This document shows, piece after piece, positions 57,165 to 64,000 of a DNA stretch of 64,000 nt. The translations under genes and the position numbers were made by a program. This stretch comes from Planctomycetota bacterium (GTDB lineage: Bacteria > Planctomycetota > PLA2 > JAEUHO01), in contig CBDCWP010000010.1 of the NCBI GenBank assembly GCA_965223505.1, positions 128,001-192,000 of the forward strand. Reading direction: 5' to 3'. Positions within the stretch are counted from its first letter, which is position 1; each line of letters starts with the position of its first letter. Under the pieces are notes generated by a model. That model was not told the DNA's origin, did not search any database, and saw only the letters and a list, made by a program, of their open reading frames with translations.

Positions 57165-58148
57165 CTACAAGAACTTGGTCTTGAGCTTCTCGGCGATCTT
57201 CTGCGCTTCCTGGCCTGCCTTGGTGTTCTCGTACTTCTTCTTCGTCAGCGACTTGATGATGGCGTACTGCTTCTTGTAGTTCGACTCTTCCGCCATCTTC
57301 GCTTTGGCCTTCGCGAGCTTCTTGCTGGCATCCACCTCGAGCTTGAGCTCCTTGTCCTTCAGGATCTCCTTGGCGGCGGCCTGCGCCTGCTTGCCGTAGT
57401 CGTGCCCCTTGAACTCCTTGGCGACGCGCTCGTAGGCGAGGAACGCGTCGTACACGTTGCGCTCGCGCAGCGCCGCCGCCGCCTCCTCGAGCGAAGAGGT
57501 CGCGGTCCACTCCAACCAGGCCTTGATCTCGTTCGCGGCTTCCAGCTCGTCGCCTTCGACCTTTTCGCCCTCGATGGCCGCGTTCACCTTCTTGAGCGCG
57601 TCGGCGAACTTCTGCTTGCCGATGGCCTTCTCGACCTTCGAGAGCGACGCCGGGAACGCCGGAAGGAGCCGGATGCTCGCCAGGGCCTCCTCGATCATCT
57701 CGGTGGTGACGGACGCCGGGTGGTCCACGACGAGCACCTTGCCGCGCGCGTCGATCAGAACCGCCGAGGGGTAGCTGTTGCGGCCGTACGCCGCCATGGA
57801 GTCGGTTTTCTCGCTGATGATCGGGTGCTTCGCGTCGGTCTTCTCGATGAACGCCTCGATGCGCGATGCCGGTTCCTTCGAGATGGAGATGACCGTCAGG
57901 CCCTTGGGGCCGTACTTCTCGTGAAGCTCGTCCAGGTGACCCACCTGGTTCACACACGGGCCTCAGGTCGTTGCGAAGAGCTCGAGGAACACGACGCGCC
58001 CGCGCAGGTCCTCGAGGGTGACCGGGTCGGTGTTGAAGAACTCGTCGCCCTCGAAGGCGGCGGCGGGATCCCCGACCCCGGCGACGGCCGAGGTGCTGGA
58101 CAGGAGGAGAACGCCGAGGACGGCGCCTGCAACGGCGATCTTGCTCAT
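57165..58148 (-). CDS. Exported TlpA/AhpC-TSA-family redoxin with UxxC motif (in-frame UGA, codon 62), candidate selenoprotein
   Basis: Signal peptide, TLEDLRGRVVFLELFATT-UGA-GPCVNQVGHLDELHEKYGPKGL, cis-Pro YPSAVLIDARGKV, helical C-terminal domain. Confidence 0.9.
57932..57948 (-). promoter_or_regulatory. SECIS-like hairpin CCAGGUG-GGU-CACCUGG
   Basis: Perfect 7-bp stem; loop starts 22 nt 3' of UGA 57965-57963. Confidence 0.75.
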
Positions 58149-58201
58149 CGAACACTCCAGATCGAGTTGCCGCGAGTATAGCGCTACGCGCCGAAATCCG
58201 G

Positions 58202-59302
58202 CTACGCGCTCGTCAGCACCACGGCGCCGGCTTGCCCGAGAAGGCCGCCGGTCAGGACCAAGACCCCGTTCGAGGCCCGTTGGGCGGCCAGCGCGACGAC
58301 GATCGACTCGTGGGCTGCGGCGAGATACCCCAAGTGCTTCGACGGCGTCCAGGCCTCGGCTTCGAGCGTCGCAACGGCCGCGTCCGCCTCGGCGCGGGCC
58401 GCCGCGGTCGCGCACGGGGGCGTCACGACGAGGGCGATCCGCGCTCGGCGCGCGTCACGCAACGCGCCCTGAAGCGCCGCCGCCAGCGTCTGTCGTTCGG
58501 GCCCGTAGCCCACCGCCGGCCCCGTTGACGCGGCCGATCCGGCGATGGTCGCGAGCGGACGCGCGCCGCGTCGCTCCGCGTGCGCGCGCGTCTCGATCAC
58601 CAACGCGCCCGCGCCGTCGCCGGGCTCCAGCGCGTCGAGCTCGAGCTGATCGATCTCGTGCAACGCGACGGGCGCGCTGCCGACCGACGCGCCGACGACG
58701 ACGGCGAGGTCGAGCCGTCCGGTCGCAACGGACCGGGCTGCGAGCGAGAGCAGGTGTTGCGACGTCGCGGAGAACCCCGCCACGCTCGTGTTCGCGCCTT
58801 GCAGCTCGTACCAGGTAGCGAGAAACGAGTAGACGTTGTTCTTCAGGTTCTCGAGCAGGAAGAACGGCTTCACGCGGCGCGCGCACGCCTGGTTGAGGGT
58901 CTTTGCCTCGTACGTTCGCCCTTCCGGGTTCGCGGCCACGAACCCCGGCCGGAAGTCCAGGCACGCCCACTCGGTTGCGTCGCCCTGTGCGAGATAGAGT
59001 CCCTTTCTCGGGCCCGCGATCTCGCCGCCGTCCAGCCCGGCTTGCAGCGCCGCCTCGCGCGTGGCGTCCACGGCGAACCGGCCGCTGGCGCTCAGGAACT
59101 TGATCTGGCTCTCGAGGTCGCGCGGCACGTCGCAGTGGATCGACGTGTCCTCGATGCGCGCGCCGCGAACGGGCGTTGCGCCGTAGAGATTGCGAACGGC
59201 GGACGCGCCGGATGTCAGTTGCGACGTCGTGGTATCCACGCCCCGCCCGAGCGCGGTGACGACACCGGCGCCGGTGATGACGACGTCGCACTTGTCGTTC
59301 AC
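58202..59302 (-). CDS. Ketosynthase-like protein lacking catalytic Cys (chain-length-factor-like)
   Basis: VVITGAGVVTALG, PGDGAGALVIE..HAERRGA; active-site position reads GANTSVAGFSATS; no HGTGT. Confidence 0.75.
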   Translation of the reverse strand: MNDKCDVVITGAGVVTALGRGVDTTTSQLTSGASAVRNLYGATPVRGARIEDTSIHCDVPRDLESQIKFLSASGRFAVDATREAALQAGLDGGEIAGPRKGLYLAQGDATEWACLDFRPGFVAANPEGRTYEAKTLNQACARRVKPFFLLENLKNNVYSFLATWYELQGANTSVAGFSATSQHLLSLAARSVATGRLDLAVVVGASVGSAPVALHEIDQLELDALEPGDGAGALVIETRAHAERRGARPLATIAGSAASTGPAVGYGPERQTLAAALQGALRDARRARIALVVTPPCATAAARAEADAAVATLEAEAWTPSKHLGYLAAAHESIVVALAAQRASNGVLVLTGGLLGQAGAVVLTSA

Positions 59303-59751
59303 GACGACTCCGGCGCGCCGCGAAGCATGTCGAACGACCGCCGGGCCGCCTCTCGCGAGGCGAGATCCTCGAGCGCGGTCACCCGTGCTTCGAACTCGAT
59401 CACGGCGGCGCGTTCGCCCTCGACCGACGCCTCGGCCCGGTAGGCGCGGCGTGCTTCGTCGTCCGACGCCGTCCGCTCGATCGACAGGTCCACGCGGTCG
59501 CCCGGCGCGGCGAACCGGTAATAGCGGGCGGAGACGACGCGATCCAAGAGCACCCAACGCTCGAACGCCGAGGACGACGCCTCCATCCAGCCGGCGAGCT
59601 GTGCGAGCGCCTCGAGAATCAGCATGCCGGGCAGGATCGGCCGCTCGGGAAAGTGCCACTCGAGGTAGTCCTCGCTCATGGCCACGTTCTTCCAGCCGGT
59701 TGCGCGGTCGGCCTCGATGGACCGGATCCGATCGACGAGCAGGTACCTCAT
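59299..59751 (-). CDS. FabZ/FabA-like 3-hydroxyacyl-ACP dehydratase
   Basis: YLLVDRI, HFPERPILPGMLILEALAQ, PGD; ATGA overlap. Confidence 0.88.
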   Translation of the reverse strand: MRYLLVDRIRSIEADRATGWKNVAMSEDYLEWHFPERPILPGMLILEALAQLAGWMEASSSAFERWVLLDRVVSARYYRFAAPGDRVDLSIERTASDDEARRAYRAEASVEGERAAVIEFEARVTALEDLASREAARRSFDMLRGAPESS

Positions 59752-60146
59752 GCGCCCGCCCTCTGGAGGATCACCGATGCCATGGCGTGCGCGCCGGTGT
59801 GGGTCAACGAGACCGACGCTGCTCCGAGCGCCTGCGTGCGGGCGACGCGCAGCGGCCGTCCCGAGAGCCGAAGCGTCGGCGCGCGGCCTTCCCGCACGAC
59901 TTCGATCTCCTTGAGCGCGCGGTCGATGCCGGTGGGCGTGATGCCGATGCCCAGCGCCTTGAGCGCGGCCTCCTTCGCCGCGAAACGGGCCGCGAAGTGC
60001 GGCAGCGGATCCGGGTGTCGCCGGCAATAGCTGCGCTCGTCGTCGGTGAACACGCGCGCCTCGAACGCTGCGTGCCGCGCCATCACATCGCGCAGATGCG
60101 CGACGTCGACGAGGTCGATGCCGTGGCGAACCGAGCCCTTCTTCAT
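59748..60146 (-). CDS. acpS: Holo-ACP synthase (phosphopantetheinyl transferase)
   Basis: GIDLV, RVFT..E, AARFAAKEAALKALG, VSLTH. Confidence 0.92.
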   Translation of the reverse strand: MKKGSVRHGIDLVDVAHLRDVMARHAAFEARVFTDDERSYCRRHPDPLPHFAARFAAKEAALKALGIGITPTGIDRALKEIEVVREGRAPTLRLSGRPLRVARTQALGAASVSLTHTGAHAMASVILQRAGA

Positions 60147-60898
60147 GCGACCGACATCCCTCCGTCGACCAGGAAACCCTGGCCCGTAATGTAGGCGGCG
60201 TCGTCCGAGCAGAGGAAGAGGACCAGGCCCGCCACGTCTTCCGGCGTGCCGAACCGTCCGGCCGGAATGCGTTCGAGGACCTGATCGCCGGCACGCCGCT
60301 TGACCACCGCCGTCATGTCCGTGTCGATGAAGCCGGGCAGAACCGCGTTGGCCTGGATATTGCGCCCCGCCATCTCCAGGGCGGTGGCGCGCGTGAACGC
60401 GAGCACGCCGCCTTTGGCCGCGGCGTAGTTGGCCTGCCCGACGCCGCCGCGCACCGAGCTGATCGAGGCGATGTTGACGATGCGACCGGCGCGCGCGCGC
60501 ATCATCGGCCGCAGCGCGGCGCGCGTGCAGAGATAGACCCCCGTGAGATTCACGTCGATGACGCGCTGCCAGTCCTCGGGTCGCATCGTGAGCAGCAACG
60601 TGTCCTTCACGATGCCGGCGTTGTTCACGAGCGCGTCGAGGCGACCGTGGTCATCGAGCACACGTTCGAAGAGCGCGCGTACGCCGTCTTCGTTGCCGAC
60701 GTCGGCCCGGACGGCTTGGGCGCTGCCGCCGGCGGCCTCGATCTCCGCGACCAAGGACGCGGCGTCATCGGCGGACGACGCGTAGTTGGCGATCACGTGG
60801 GCGCCGTTCGCTGCGAGACGCCGGGCCACCGCCCGTCCGATGCCGCGGGAAGCGCCCGTCACGAGCGCGACGCGGTCATGCAGGTTGTCGCGAATCAT
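60143..60898 (-). CDS. fabG: 3-oxoacyl-ACP reductase
   Basis: TGASRGIG, NNAGI, GQANYAAAKGG, PGFIDTDMT. Confidence 0.92.
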   Translation of the reverse strand: MIRDNLHDRVALVTGASRGIGRAVARRLAANGAHVIANYASSADDAASLVAEIEAAGGSAQAVRADVGNEDGVRALFERVLDDHGRLDALVNNAGIVKDTLLLTMRPEDWQRVIDVNLTGVYLCTRAALRPMMRARAGRIVNIASISSVRGGVGQANYAAAKGGVLAFTRATALEMAGRNIQANAVLPGFIDTDMTAVVKRRAGDQVLERIPAGRFGTPEDVAGLVLFLCSDDAAYITGQGFLVDGGMSVA

Positions 60899-62124
60899 GC
60901 GTCGTCTCCGAAAGCCCGCACCGCCAAGACGGCGTTCTGTCCGCCGAACGCGAAGGAGTTGTTCAGCGCGGCGGTGACCACCGCTTGCCGGCTCGCGTCC
61001 GGGACGAGGTCCAGATCGCATGCCGGGTCCGGTTGCGTCAAGTTGCGTGTCGGCGGCACCGCGCCGCGGCGGATGGCGAGGACGCAGAAGATGAACGCGA
61101 CGCCGGCCGCGGCCGAGAGCAGATGGCCGATCGCGCCCTTGCCGGACGACACGGCCAACGCGGCGGCGTGATCCCCGAACACCGTGTGGATCGCCCGGAC
61201 CTCGGCGGGGTCGTTGCGCTTCGTCCCGGTCCCGTGGGCGTTGACGAACTGGACCTCGCTCGGCGCGAGTCCGCCGTCGCGCAGCGCGGCGTCCATGGCT
61301 TCCGCGGCGCCGCGGCCGTCCGGCGGCGGTGCGGTCGTGCGATAGGCGTCCAGCGAGGAGCCGTAGCCGGCCACCTCGGCGTAGATGCGCGCCCCACGGG
61401 CGCGGGCGTGTTCGAGCTCCTCGAGCACGACGCAGCCGGCGCCCTCGCCCATGACCAGCCCCGAGCGCTTGCGGTCGAACGGCTTGCAGGCCGCGGCCGG
61501 ATCGTCCCCGACCGAAGCGGAGGCGCCCAGCAGCACGAAGAAGACGAGTCCCAGCGGGTTGATCATCGAGTCCGCGCCGCCGGCGATCATCCAGTCCGTC
61601 TCGCCCCGGCGAATGCTGCGAAACGCGGCGCCGAGCGCCTGGTTGGACGCGGAGCAGGCCGTGGTCACCGCGTGCACCGGACCGCCGAGACCCAATTCCC
61701 GGGCCAACAGTACGGCCGGCAGCTCCGCCGTGTTGCGGATCAGACTCTCCGGATGGACCGCCGCCGCATCGTCGACGCCGACGTCCTCGAGCCGGTGGAC
61801 GCCGGGGCCGGAACCCAGGATCACGCCGGCCCGGTCGTGCGCCCCGCGTTCGATGCCGGCGTCGGCAGCCGCGTTCGTTCCGGCGGCGACGCCGAACAGC
61901 GTGCGCAGATCGCATGCCGCGGCGGCAGGCAGGGAGGTGCGCAGGCGCTCGACCACGGCGTCGTCGACCTCGCCGACCGCGCCCGTGGGGGGGCGCGTCG
62001 CACCGTGCCGCCGCGACGCCGTGACGCCCGCGTCTCCGCCCAGCATGCGCTCCCACACCGTGTCCACGTCGTCTCCGAACGGTGTGACCAGCCCCAGCCC
62101 TGTGATGACCACGCGCCGGCTCAT
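60895..62124 (-). CDS. Beta-ketoacyl-ACP synthase (FabF-like), intact Cys-His-His
   Basis: TTACSAS, PFDRKRSG..MGEG, NAHGTGT, IGHLLSAA, NSFAFGGQN. Confidence 0.93.
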   Translation of the reverse strand: MSRRVVITGLGLVTPFGDDVDTVWERMLGGDAGVTASRRHGATRPPTGAVGEVDDAVVERLRTSLPAAAACDLRTLFGVAAGTNAAADAGIERGAHDRAGVILGSGPGVHRLEDVGVDDAAAVHPESLIRNTAELPAVLLARELGLGGPVHAVTTACSASNQALGAAFRSIRRGETDWMIAGGADSMINPLGLVFFVLLGASASVGDDPAAACKPFDRKRSGLVMGEGAGCVVLEELEHARARGARIYAEVAGYGSSLDAYRTTAPPPDGRGAAEAMDAALRDGGLAPSEVQFVNAHGTGTKRNDPAEVRAIHTVFGDHAAALAVSSGKGAIGHLLSAAAGVAFIFCVLAIRRGAVPPTRNLTQPDPACDLDLVPDASRQAVVTAALNNSFAFGGQNAVLAVRAFGDDA

Positions 62125-62564
62125 GCGCCGAGGACCCCGCCGTAGTACGCGAACCGCTTCCGCAGGACGTCGGGTTCGGGATGGGGGAGATGACCGTACA
62201 AGACCCGGCCGATGCGCGCGACCTCGACCCCGTCGACCTCAGCCCACGCGTGCCCGATCGACCCCTTGGGGTTCGTGCCCCGTAGCTCGCCGAAGAGCGT
62301 CAGCGTGCGCCCGGGACCGATCTCGGGGACCACCTCGACGTCCTCCAGCACCGAGAGAACGACCATGAGCGTGTAGTCGTGGCGGTGGATCGCGAGCCAA
62401 CCGAGGAGCTGCACCATCGCCTCGATGATCAGCGACGACGGCACGAGCGCCCTGCGATCGAAGTGGCCGCGCAGGTACTCCTCGGAGATCGACAGTGACT
62501 TCACGCCCTCGATGCGGTTGCCGGGCTCGAAACGGGTGACGCGGTCGAAGAGAAGGAATCTCAC
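62121..62564 (-). CDS. Second FabZ-like dehydratase (divergent)
   Basis: FLLFDRV, GHFDRRALVPSSLIIEAMVQ; GTGA overlap. Confidence 0.8.
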   Translation of the reverse strand: MRFLLFDRVTRFEPGNRIEGVKSLSISEEYLRGHFDRRALVPSSLIIEAMVQLLGWLAIHRHDYTLMVVLSVLEDVEVVPEIGPGRTLTLFGELRGTNPKGSIGHAWAEVDGVEVARIGRVLYGHLPHPEPDVLRKRFAYYGGVLGA

Positions 62565-63511
62565 GGCGACTCCAACAGGATCGCAGCGCAACCGCCGTGG
62601 CTGGCCCGCGTGAGCACGAGCGCGCTGCCCGCGCCGGTCGCGTGGAAGTGGTCCACGCAGGCGACGAGATCGACGAGCGGTTCCGCCGCGCCGCGGCTCG
62701 AGCGCACGGCGCCGCGTTGCTCGACCAGCGCATCGGCGAGGCCGTAGGCCTGGAGCTCGAACCACAGGTCCAGTGGCGCGCGGACGTGCCCGACGCTCTG
62801 CGGATCGCGTTCTCGAAGCACCGTGCGAATGGCGCGCGTGCAGGCGTCGCCGGAGCCGTACTCGAAGGTCGACGTTCCCGCGACGACGAAGGCCAGGGCA
62901 GCGACCCCTCGATCCTTCGCCGACGCCTCCGACTCGAGCACGCACGCCGCGCCCGCCTGCTCGCGTTCGGCCGGCTCACCCCGCAGCGCGTCCCGTAGCC
63001 GGGCGGGCGTCGTCAGGTCCTCGGACACGCCCGCGCACAGCGCGGCCTGTGCGGCGCCTTCGTCGATGGCGTGATGGGCTTCGATGAGCGCGCGCATGCC
63101 GGCATCGGACTCGCTGGCCAGGACGGCGTTGTCTCCGCGAATGCCGAGGTCGGTGGCGATCTGTCCCGCCGCGACGTTGTTCAGCATCGCGAGCGGCCAC
63201 AACGGGTGAATCGAACGGTACGCGCCCGCGAAGAAGCGGGCTTCGTCGATCCGCCCGTCCACGCGCGACGCGTCGGCGGCCGCGACGAGATCGTCGGCGC
63301 CGTCGACCATGCCCATGCCGAAGAAGAGCCCCACGCGGCGCGGGTCCAGCTCCTGCAGACGTCCCCGGCGGTACGCCTCCGGCGCGACCGTCTCCAACAT
63401 CCGACCGTGCGCGCCGAGAATGCGGAGCGCCGGATCGGCATCGACGTCCATCACGTCCGACGACGCCATGTCGCTTCGACACGCGGCCGTGATCGCGACG
63501 CGCCCGGCCAT
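62561..63511 (-). CDS. Short ketosynthase-like protein lacking catalytic Cys (chain-length-factor-like)
   Basis: HPLWPLAMLNNVAAGQI, GDNAVLASESDAG at the TAC position, AGAACVLE; no HGT. Confidence 0.72.
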   Translation of the reverse strand: MAGRVAITAACRSDMASSDVMDVDADPALRILGAHGRMLETVAPEAYRRGRLQELDPRRVGLFFGMGMVDGADDLVAAADASRVDGRIDEARFFAGAYRSIHPLWPLAMLNNVAAGQIATDLGIRGDNAVLASESDAGMRALIEAHHAIDEGAAQAALCAGVSEDLTTPARLRDALRGEPAEREQAGAACVLESEASAKDRGVAALAFVVAGTSTFEYGSGDACTRAIRTVLRERDPQSVGHVRAPLDLWFELQAYGLADALVEQRGAVRSSRGAAEPLVDLVACVDHFHATGAGSALVLTRASHGGCAAILLESP

Positions 63512-64000
63512 CAAGCAGCCGGTCCCAGGCACAGACAGCCGTTCTGCCCGCCGAACCCGAACGAACTGGAGAGCACGACCGAGTGTTCCATCTCGCGCGC
63601 CTCGTTGGGCACGTAGTCGAGGTCGCAGCGCCGGTCGGGAAACTCGTAGTTGATCGTGGGGAGCACCACGCCGTCGCGCATGCCGCGAAGGCTCAGGATC
63701 GCTTCGATCGCGCCCGCGGCGCCGATCGTGTGCCCGAGCATGCTCTTGTTGCTGGAGACAGGCACCCGCGCGGCGCGCCCGCCGATCACGCGCTTGATCG
63801 CGAGCGTCTCGACGGGGTCGTTGGTCGGTGTCGAGGTGCCGTGGGCGTTCACGTAGTCGACGTCGTCGGGCGTGAGCCCGGCGTCGCGGATCGCGCGCCG
63901 CATGGCGAGCACGGCCCCGTCGCCGCGCGGATGCACGTCGGTGATGCGATAGGCGTCGGCCGAGTCTCCGTATCCGAGGATCTCGCCGAGCGCGTCCACC
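63511..64000 (-). CDS. Beta-ketoacyl-ACP synthase (FabF-like), 5'-truncated by window edge
   Basis: [37 protein letters not shown]. Confidence 0.92.

What the first reader, a model, noticed from the sequence alone, without database searches (positions are those of the whole stretch)
57165..58148. Exported TlpA-like redoxin with a U-G-P-C active site split in two by the ORF caller
Seen: ORFs 57963..58415 and 57165..57953 are the same frame, joined by TGA-GGC-CCG-TGT, giving FATT-U-GPC exactly where TlpA/ResA proteins have WATWCxxC. A perfect 7-bp hairpin (CCAGGUG/GGU/CACCUGG) has its loop 22 nt downstream, and its GGUC apex resembles the E. coli fdhF SECIS loop. It has a signal peptide and a roughly 170-aa Lys/Ala-rich helical tail. 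Established: UxxC thioredoxin-fold selenoproteins occur in bacteria. Inference: an extracytoplasmic selenol oxidoreductase.
Basis: partly seen in the sequence, partly recalled or inferred. Interest (0 to 1): 0.78.

Follow-up and report, generated by a model that had tools for sequence, protein, structure and literature searches.

The report
Planctomycete-wide exported TlpA selenoprotein family
Two apparent genes here are one gene whose internal UGA codon is almost certainly read as selenocysteine, giving a likely exported disulfide-reducing enzyme of a known kind; relatives with an in-frame UGA occur in about 3 in 10 of the genomes sampled from its phylum, and gene callers cut them in two.

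Summary
Confirmed. The minus-strand frame 58148-57165 encodes 327 residues with one TGA (codon 62) at the first Cys position of a TlpA/ResA-type CxxC. The genome has tRNA-Sec, selA, selB and selD. Homologues with the same architecture (signal peptide, TlpA-like domain, 168-residue helical tail) occur in 115 of 301 sampled genomes of the phylum (inferred to be Planctomycetota); 91 carry an in-frame TGA, and all 91 have selA or tRNA-Sec. In 134 matches from hand-picked loci, the site was TGA in 100, Cys in 28 and lacked CxxC in 6.

The hairpin is weak evidence alone (14% of synonymous recodings give one), but rare-codon choices and a covarying outer pair in 29 relatives support it as the SECIS. 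The tail resembles CpoB/BamD-type TPR hairpins only weakly and is also fused to esterases.

Most likely function: an envelope disulfide reductase recharged by a DsbD/ScsB-type protein; substrate unknown. UxxC TlpA/redoxin selenoproteins are already catalogued, and this scan found this kind before, in the paralog and in other genomes. What this adds is the breadth of an unnamed subfamily and its SECIS variation.

The parts
58155..58158 (-). GGAG ribosome-binding-like site 6 nt before the ATG; a TATACT -10-like hexamer lies at 58175-58180
   Evidence: Sequence. The sigma-70 scan found no full promoter, so the hexamer is only a hint.
57165..58148 (-). Whole gene, 327 aa plus TAG
   Evidence: full-length homologues of 313-354 aa align end to end
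58080..58148 (-). Predicted Sec-pathway signal peptide, about residues 1-23, no lipobox
   Evidence: Basic N-terminus plus hydrophobic stretch here and in nearly all of 30 aligned homologues (the chosen start of L025 is too far upstream, and L029 lacks the basic residue); pLDDT under 50 for residues 1-19
57672..58079 (-). TlpA/ResA/DsbE-like thioredoxin-fold domain, residues 24-159; E56 nearly invariant and P127 invariant in 30 homologues
   Evidence: Pfam PF00578 and PF08534 over cut-off; structural match to 3gl3 DsbE Z 20.2, rmsd 1.8, 134 aligned, and to ResA 2f9s Z 17.9; alignment
57963..57965 (-). In-frame TGA, codon 62, inferred selenocysteine at the attacking position of U-G-P-C; C65 is at 57956-57954
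57932..57948 (-). SECIS-like upper stem-loop: 7 bp, GGU loop at +22 to +24, encoded by the Q-V-G-H-L codons; the predicted lower stem extends to about +55
57168..57671 (-). 168-aa all-helical C-terminal domain (8 helices), weakly TPR-like, with no Pfam family
   Evidence: AlphaFold pLDDT 97.7; no Pfam hit for this member; profile hits CpoB E 3e-5 and BamD E 0.006 over 30-90 positions; best structural Z 8.0-8.3 with rmsd above 6

Best explanation
This is one gene whose in-frame UGA sits at the first cysteine position of a TlpA-like CxxC site and is very likely read as selenocysteine, giving a protein that is predicted to be exported and that likely works as a cell-envelope disulfide reductase. 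Shown in sequence: the frame, the UGA position, the fold class, the Sec machinery and the conserved hairpin. Inferred from the established bacterial SelB/SECIS mechanism: SelB with Sec-tRNA binds the GGU-loop hairpin 22 nt downstream and inserts Sec62. Inferred from TlpA/ResA chemistry: after export and signal cleavage, the Sec62 selenolate attacks a disulfide or oxidised thiol on a client, Cys65 resolves the mixed bond to a Se-S ring, and a DsbD/ScsB-type membrane protein recharges it. The genome has two such proteins, one with its own UxxC. Least certain: the helical TPR-like tail serves as a docking or localisation module that holds clients or an envelope partner. The client is unknown; envelope peroxiredoxin-like proteins or mis-oxidised exported proteins are the likeliest.
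For: Sec reading: tRNA-Sec 69 bits (cut-off 47), selB 336 (242), selA 507 (268), selD 338 (125), and selD has its own TGA. TGA is an ordinary stop in 714 of 1945 confident long ORFs, so there is no global reassignment. 91 of the 115 genomes with a full-length hit have a listed match with an in-frame TGA; 89 of these have selA and the other two have tRNA-Sec. Of the 24 hit genomes without a listed TGA, 7 lack selA. In 134 matches from 131 hand-picked loci, the site was TGA in 100, Cys in 28 and lacked CxxC in 6; TGA never stood at the second Cys position, and the frame stayed open for at least 253 codons after every TGA. SECIS: in the 29 UGA genes with Gly/Val at codon +8, codon +8 is GGT in 10 of 18 Gly (0.9 expected) and GTT in 6 of 11 Val (0.5 expected), and codon +10 is CTG in 26 of 29 (10.5 expected). 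The stem register holds 4.83 pairs against 0.83 in synonymous recodings, and the outer pair is Watson-Crick in 21 of 29 against 10.8 expected. A GGU/GUU-loop hairpin follows 14 of 19 UxxC/UxPF candidates in this genome against 3-5% of true stops and Cys codons (the pattern was chosen after seeing the candidates). Reductase role: fold class; DsbD_N + DsbD_TM + Thioredoxin_7 protein on C11 with DFTADW-U-ATC and a second DsbD-like gene on C36. Precedent: ScsB passes electrons through TlpA to the envelope peroxiredoxin PprX in Caulobacter (PMC3322552, passages).
Against: There is no protein- or RNA-level evidence. No link to the DsbD-like genes or to any client was shown, and they lie on other contigs. 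The hairpin in this gene alone is unremarkable. 32 of 71 UGA homologues outside the Gly/Val group do not fit the published SECIS model. Six family matches have lost the CxxC altogether, and the tail is also fused to esterases, so the architecture does not always serve redox chemistry. Related genomes are not independent, which inflates every cross-genome count.
Confidence: 0.7

Rival explanations
1. Same selenoprotein, but it works as an envelope chaperedoxin or isomerase: the helical tail holds unfolded exported proteins while Sec62 protects or reshuffles their cysteines, as CnoX does in the cytoplasm.
For: Thioredoxin domain followed by a TPR-like helical domain, the same order as in CnoX (PMC8129009, passages). 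Family members without CxxC exist, as E. coli CnoX has SxxC. The best structural neighbour of the tail is the co-chaperone P58(IPK), Z 8.0-8.3.
Against: Those Z-scores, with rmsd above 6, are within the range the tool calls a common arrangement for helical bundles. The same tail is fused to alpha/beta-hydrolases (L139, L249, L264), which suits a general docking module better than a redox holdase. The thioredoxin domain is of the TlpA type.
Confidence: 0.15
2. Same selenoprotein, but dedicated to one maturation pathway: ResA/CcmG-like reduction of apocytochrome c, TlpA-like oxidase assembly, or service to the neighbouring ketosynthase cluster.
For: The best NCBIfam hit is ResA (69.7 bits). The genome has a cytochrome c assembly gene and six COX1-family matches. 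The upstream ketosynthase-like gene is conserved in 4 of 30 loci, and the convergent GSDH/cytochrome c gene in 2 of 30.
Against: The score is far under the ResA cut-off (170). The cytochrome c assembly gene is on another contig. 26 of 30 loci show no match to that upstream gene within 1.5 kb, some loci being short. There is no membrane anchor or lipobox.
Confidence: 0.1
3. The TGA is a true stop, a sequencing error, or is read as another residue: a pseudogene, two separate small proteins, or a changed genetic code.
For: The hairpin alone is not significant. There is no expression evidence.
Against: TGA stands at the same codon in 100 matches across the phylum with intact downstream frames. It tracks with the Sec machinery. 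Contigs agree at the site. TGA is a normal stop elsewhere. The downstream ORF would start after Cys65 and so have neither redox residue nor signal peptide.
Confidence: 0.04

Closest known systems
[quoted passage not shown]
   Same: Same Pfam domains over cut-off, same UxxC motif with Sec at the first position, coding-region SECIS.
   Different: The table names no form with a C-terminal helical/TPR-like tail, and the main text has no 'Planctomyc' or 'periplasm'. I could not compare with the table's representative sequences.
'Thiol-disulfide isomerase-like thioredoxin' and AhpC/TSA selenoprotein candidates of planctomycete P1 (Kim et al. 2016, PMC4807772; section 17 and Table S9 read)
   Same: Planctomycete thioredoxin-fold genes split in two at UGA by the annotation; the two isomerase-like ones had no SECIS call, like many Pro-type members here.
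Caulobacter TlpA in the ScsB-TlpA-PprX envelope pathway (PMC3322552, passages); Bacillus ResA and Chlorobium DsbE structures
   Same: Exported TlpA/ResA-type thioredoxin fold acting as a reductase fed by a DsbD-family protein.
   Different: Those have Cys, not Sec, and the solved domains align only to residues 22-160; scores are under the ResA (69.7 of 170) and TlpA (34 of 230) NCBIfam cut-offs.
NCBIfam NF041054 (ResA-like WAxxUGC) and NF041382 (VPGUxxT thioredoxin-like selenoprotein, type 1)
   Same: About 350-aa thioredoxin-fold (seleno)proteins; NF041382 weakly matches the tail (residues 160-319, E 2e-4; 17 of 30 homologues hit the model, best 6e-16).
   Different: Different motifs, and scores far under cut-off (42.6 of 300; 20.5 of 350).
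CnoX/YbbN chaperedoxin (PMC8129009, passages)
   Same: Thioredoxin domain followed by a TPR-type helical domain; some members lack CxxC.
   Different: CnoX works with the cytoplasmic GroEL/ES and DnaK systems; this protein has a signal peptide, a TlpA-type domain and Sec.

Membership tests
Bacterial UGA-Sec selenoprotein | In-frame UGA aligned to a conserved Cys of homologues | tested here: met
   100 TGA and 28 Cys at the same column in 134 matches
Bacterial UGA-Sec selenoprotein | selA, selB, selC, selD in the genome | tested here: met
   all over cut-off
Bacterial UGA-Sec selenoprotein | SECIS: 3-9 nt loop, stem of 4 bp or more, G in the first two loop positions, 16-37 nt from UGA, MFE at or below -7.5 | tested here: met
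   3-nt GGU loop at +22, 7 bp, -21.6 kcal/mol; criteria from PMC13188914; 29 of 29 Gly/Val-type UGA genes fit against 3 of 27 Cys genes (with suboptimal folds allowed and no energy limit)
Bacterial UGA-Sec selenoprotein | Selenium actually in the protein | not testable with these tools
   needs 75Se labelling or mass spectrometry
TlpA/ResA/DsbE-like redoxin (PF00578, PF08534) | Pfam score over cut-off and TlpA-type thioredoxin fold with CxxC and the conserved Pro | tested here: met
TlpA-like family cd02966 | CDD model hit | not testable with these tools
   CDD is not among the libraries; NCBI names a Cys homologue 'TlpA disulfide reductase family protein'
ResA (NF002854) / TlpA (NF047696) | Score over curated cut-off | tested here: not met
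   69.7 of 170 and 34 of 230
ResA-like WAxxUGC (NF041054) | WAxxUGC motif and cut-off 300 | tested here: not met
   motif is FATT-U-GPC; 42.6 bits
VPGUxxT type 1 (NF041382) | VPGU motif and cut-off 350 | tested here: not met
   20.5 bits, tail only
Peroxiredoxin (Sec type) | PxxxTxxU motif | tested here: not met
   positions -7 and -3 are Leu55 and Ala59; motif as given in PMC13188914
CnoX/YbbN chaperedoxin | Thioredoxin domain plus saddle-shaped TPR domain | tested here: inconclusive
   tail is only weakly TPR-like
CnoX/YbbN chaperedoxin | Cytoplasmic location, hand-over to GroEL/ES | tested here: not met
   signal-peptide-like N-terminus in this protein and its homologues (a crude rule)
CnoX/YbbN chaperedoxin | Holdase activity | not testable with these tools
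   needs an aggregation assay

The most novel reading that the evidence does not exclude
This family is the hub of a selenium-based electron relay in the planctomycete cell envelope (Sec-DsbD/ScsB to Sec-TlpA to exported clients), old in the phylum and running in oxygen-respiring cells, with a TPR-like tail that makes it an exported selenol chaperedoxin. In addition, the need for a SECIS pushed the conserved Pro eight residues after the attacking residue to Gly/Val in two lineages, while most Pro-type members use hairpins at other positions or a SECIS class not yet described.
Probability: 0.2. Interest if true: 0.7.

Novelty: new member of a known kind. Interest (0 to 1): 0.4.

Why it matters
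The gene alone is an expected kind of selenoprotein. Three things give it some value. First, scale: a Sec form is predicted in 91 of 301 genomes sampled across the phylum, yet 28 of the family's entries examined in protein collections are N-terminally cut pieces that begin just after the site, so the family is hidden from annotation. The 2026 review and the BSepDB paper do not mention Planctomycetes in their main text (the BSepDB database itself and its figures were not seen). Second, the review says aerobic bacteria rarely keep selenoproteins, whereas this genome has six COX1-family matches and 19 UxxC/UxPF candidates, nearly all with signal-peptide-like starts. Third, the family is a ready test set for how a coding-region SECIS trades off against protein sequence: Gly/Val with a fixed hairpin versus Pro with variable or no canonical hairpin, and at least 13 Sec/Cys changes on the tree.

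Tried and rejected
Hairpin significance from this gene alone: not significant. Genetic code change: rejected, TGA ends 714 of 1945 long ORFs. Peroxiredoxin, WAxxUGC and VPGUxxT membership: rejected. Fixed operon context: not found; the upstream ketosynthase-like gene matched in 4 of 30 loci and the downstream GSDH gene in 2 of 30. Promoter and terminator scan: none found. Tail fold: Foldseek gave no match at E 0.001, VIA-align best Z 8.0-8.3, no Pfam family recurs among 30 tails, and Atlas hits with named TPR families scored under 0.9 with a low recognition value; CnoX was not listed in these searches, which does not exclude it. Tail homodimer prediction: no verdict, score 0.00. Sequencing runs: no RNA holder listed; run X3 and the low-share run X4 had no piece bridging the TGA among those shown. 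Two origins of the Gly/Val hairpin: the tree with those codons masked needs two changes in 200 of 200 bootstrap trees, but the AU test does not reject one clade (p 0.10), so convergence is not shown. A shared structure among the 71 other UGA genes: no consensus fold. A single-sequence scan of genome contigs found nothing. The coding-potential scans for read-through were noisy, with more TAG than TGA hits; only the motif-restricted scan separated them (UxxC: 22 TGA against 6 TAG). Haft and Tolstoy 2025 (mSystems) is not held in the library, so I could not check it for this family. Searches for print on this family found no paper naming it.

Full report
OBSERVATION. The minus-strand frame from ATG 58148 to TAG 57165 gives 327 residues with a single TGA at 57965-57963, codon 62, in FATT-U-GPC. 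A GGAG lies 6 nt before the ATG. Pfam AhpC-TSA and Redoxin pass their cut-offs across the TGA. The protein collection holds only the 262-aa downstream piece. Contigs of two runs of one sample, possibly the source of this DNA, show no difference across the codon. The 7-bp hairpin and the +22 loop are as described.

MACHINERY. The genome (92% complete) has tRNA-Sec with a TCA anticodon, selB, selA and selD over cut-off, and selD has its own in-frame TGA. TGA is an ordinary stop in 714 of 1945 confident long ORFs. The best full-length named relatives are mostly Planctomycetota MAGs, so the phylum is inferred.

FAMILY. Among 40 relatives, the best hit in 29 loci plus this gene and its paralogue on C43 gave 30 full-length sequences, 24 with TGA and 6 with Cys at the site. 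A profile of these hit 115 of 301 genomes drawn across the phylum at E 1e-55 or better. From the 150 listed matches (6 more were not listed) I tallied by hand 91 genomes with an in-frame TGA. Of these, 89 have selA and the other two have tRNA-Sec. Of the 24 hit genomes without a listed TGA, 7 lack selA; one of three such genomes checked still has tRNA-Sec. I fetched 100 further loci by hand, choosing both TGA and non-TGA rows, so the next ratio is not a random sample. Of 134 matches over 150 bits in 131 loci, 100 have TGA at the first Cys position, 28 have Cys, 6 have no CxxC, and none has TGA at the second position (the script stopped on an error after printing these counts). The frame stays open for 253 or more codons after every TGA. 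On a FastTree tree of 126 rows with the site masked, the Sec/Cys label changes at least 13 times, 10 of them forced by well-supported branches, with Cys rows often nested among Sec rows. The tree is unrooted, so 'Sec is old and often reverts' is an inference.

SECIS. In this gene alone the hairpin is weak evidence: the Q-V-x-H-L codons are partly self-complementary, 13.7% of 1000 synonymous recodings give an equal stem, and the folding z-score is -1.04. Comparison supports it. Codon +8 is Pro in 25 of 28 Cys genes and 66 of 100 UGA genes, but Gly or Val in 29 UGA genes, including this one. I defined that group by the loop codon, so its leading G is circular; the synonymous choices are not. They are GTG at +7 in 22 of 29 (11.1 expected), GGT in 10 of 18 Gly and GTT in 6 of 11 Val at +8 (0.9 and 0.5 expected), and CTG at +10 in 26 of 29 (10.5 expected). 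The stem register holds 4.83 pairs against 0.83 in recodings. The outer pair is C-G, U-A or A-U in 21 of 29 against 10.8 expected; on 18 of them the covariation score was reached by 1 of 500 shuffles, with one covarying pair only. The Cys members nested in this clade (L030, L037, L038) have lost the loop and the perfect stem. The structural part of the published consensus (PMC13188914, passages) is met by 29 of 29 Gly/Val genes, 39 of 71 other UGA genes and 3 of 27 Cys genes. So nearly half of the others have no canonical SECIS by my test, in line with BSepDB's 87.4% overall (PMC13326102, section 11). Within this genome, 14 of 19 UxxC/UxPF candidates have a G(G/U)U-loop hairpin against 3-5% of controls (pattern set after seeing the candidates). 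The Gly/Val type falls in two separate groups, but one origin is not rejected (AU p 0.10).

PROTEIN. The AlphaFold model (pLDDT 92.7) has a disordered N-terminal 19 residues, a thioredoxin fold to about residue 157 and eight helices after it. The domain matches DsbE, ResA and TlpA structures (Z 20.2, 17.9, 15.0). It lacks the peroxiredoxin PxxxTxxU motif, and no NCBIfam family is reached. The N-terminus looks like a signal peptide without a lipobox, and the mature chain has no transmembrane stretch (crude rule). The tail folds confidently alone (pLDDT 97.7). It has only weak links to periplasmic TPR proteins: CpoB E 3e-5 over 33 positions, BamD E 0.006, best structural Z about 8 with rmsd above 6. 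A tail profile hits 46 of 61 genomes of the phylum. Among 30 such loci most carry a TlpA-like domain, but three carry an alpha/beta-hydrolase (two checked in Pfam, weak esterase hits under cut-off), so the tail is a mobile module of exported proteins.

CONTEXT. Upstream on the same strand is a ketosynthase/FabA/ACPS cluster ending 54 nt before the ATG; downstream, convergent, is a GSDH-cytochrome c gene. These neighbours recur in 4 and 2 of 30 loci within 1.5 kb, which is ordinary synteny rather than a fixed operon. The genome has two DsbD-family genes. The one on C11 has DsbD_N, DsbD_TM and Thioredoxin_7 domains with U-A-T-C in the last; the one on C36 has Cys. All 19 UxxC/UxPF candidates passed my signal-peptide rule; two of the starts it chose (C11, C12) are spurious, and I ran no control for the rule. 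There are six COX1-family matches, some of which may be nitric oxide reductases.

MECHANISM. Sec insertion by SelB and the hairpin: about 0.95. Export: about 0.9. Envelope disulfide reductase fed by DsbD/ScsB, as for Caulobacter TlpA (PMC3322552, passages): about 0.7 overall. A chaperedoxin or isomerase role (0.15) and a dedicated maturation role (0.1) remain open. No client or partner was shown.

COMPARISON WITH WHAT IS KNOWN. UxxC selenoproteins with PF00578, PF08534 and cd02966 domains are in the 2026 inventory (PMC13188914, section 7 parts 1-2 of 3). Split thioredoxin-like selenoprotein candidates in a planctomycete were listed in 2016 (PMC4807772, section 17 and Table S9). deep-Sep (PMC12013277) had no hits for my terms. 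I found no paper naming this architecture, but could not see Haft and Tolstoy 2025 or the BSepDB contents. Earlier notes of this scan report the paralogue and similar genes in other genomes with the same verdict; I treated them as leads only.

VERDICT. Real, well supported and of a known kind: a new member of the TlpA-like UxxC selenoproteins, belonging to an unnamed and widespread planctomycete subfamily. Interest 0.4.

Noticed in passing
L141:649-2706 (+), G000 contig C11: DsbD/ScsB-type membrane electron transporter whose C-terminal thioredoxin domain has an in-frame TGA in DFTADW-U-ATC, followed by a GGUCC-loop hairpin; a likely selenoprotein electron donor for the envelope.
   Followed up: partly
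L051:1477-2496 (+), G000 contig C43: Paralogue with 42-45% identity, the same U-G-P-C site and tail, and a weaker hairpin.
   Followed up: partly
G000 genome-wide: About 19 UxxC/UxPF read-through candidates, nearly all with signal-peptide-like starts, plus CU, UC and CxU candidates that I did not check; a large exported selenoproteome.
   Followed up: partly
L139 (G000 C44), L249, L264: The same helical tail is fused to alpha/beta-hydrolase (esterase-like) domains with a GFSxGG motif.
   Followed up: partly
L174, L182, L183, L235, L237, L239; P0026, P0046, P0068, P0132, P0150, P0160: Full-length family members with no CxxC, which suggests a non-redox role for the architecture.
   Followed up: no
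L018 (G000 C8, selD): [quoted passage not shown]
   Followed up: no
window 58202-63999 (-): Type II fatty acid/polyketide-like cluster with several ketosynthase-like genes, some apparently degenerate, FabG-, FabA/FabZ-like and ACPS genes; the adjacent ketosynthase-like gene sits upstream of the orthologue in 4 of 30 loci.
   Followed up: partly
G000 genome-wide: TAG is the commonest stop codon (1113 of 1945 long ORFs, against 714 TGA), which I recall as unusual for a GC-rich bacterium; it may relate to heavy UGA recoding.
   Followed up: no
G000 C40:191174-192297: Array of 11 tRNA genes in about 1.1 kb.
   Followed up: no
L228, L231 (G161, G228): Tandem pairs of this family in which one copy has TGA and the neighbour has Cys, a possible selenium-independent backup.
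   Followed up: no
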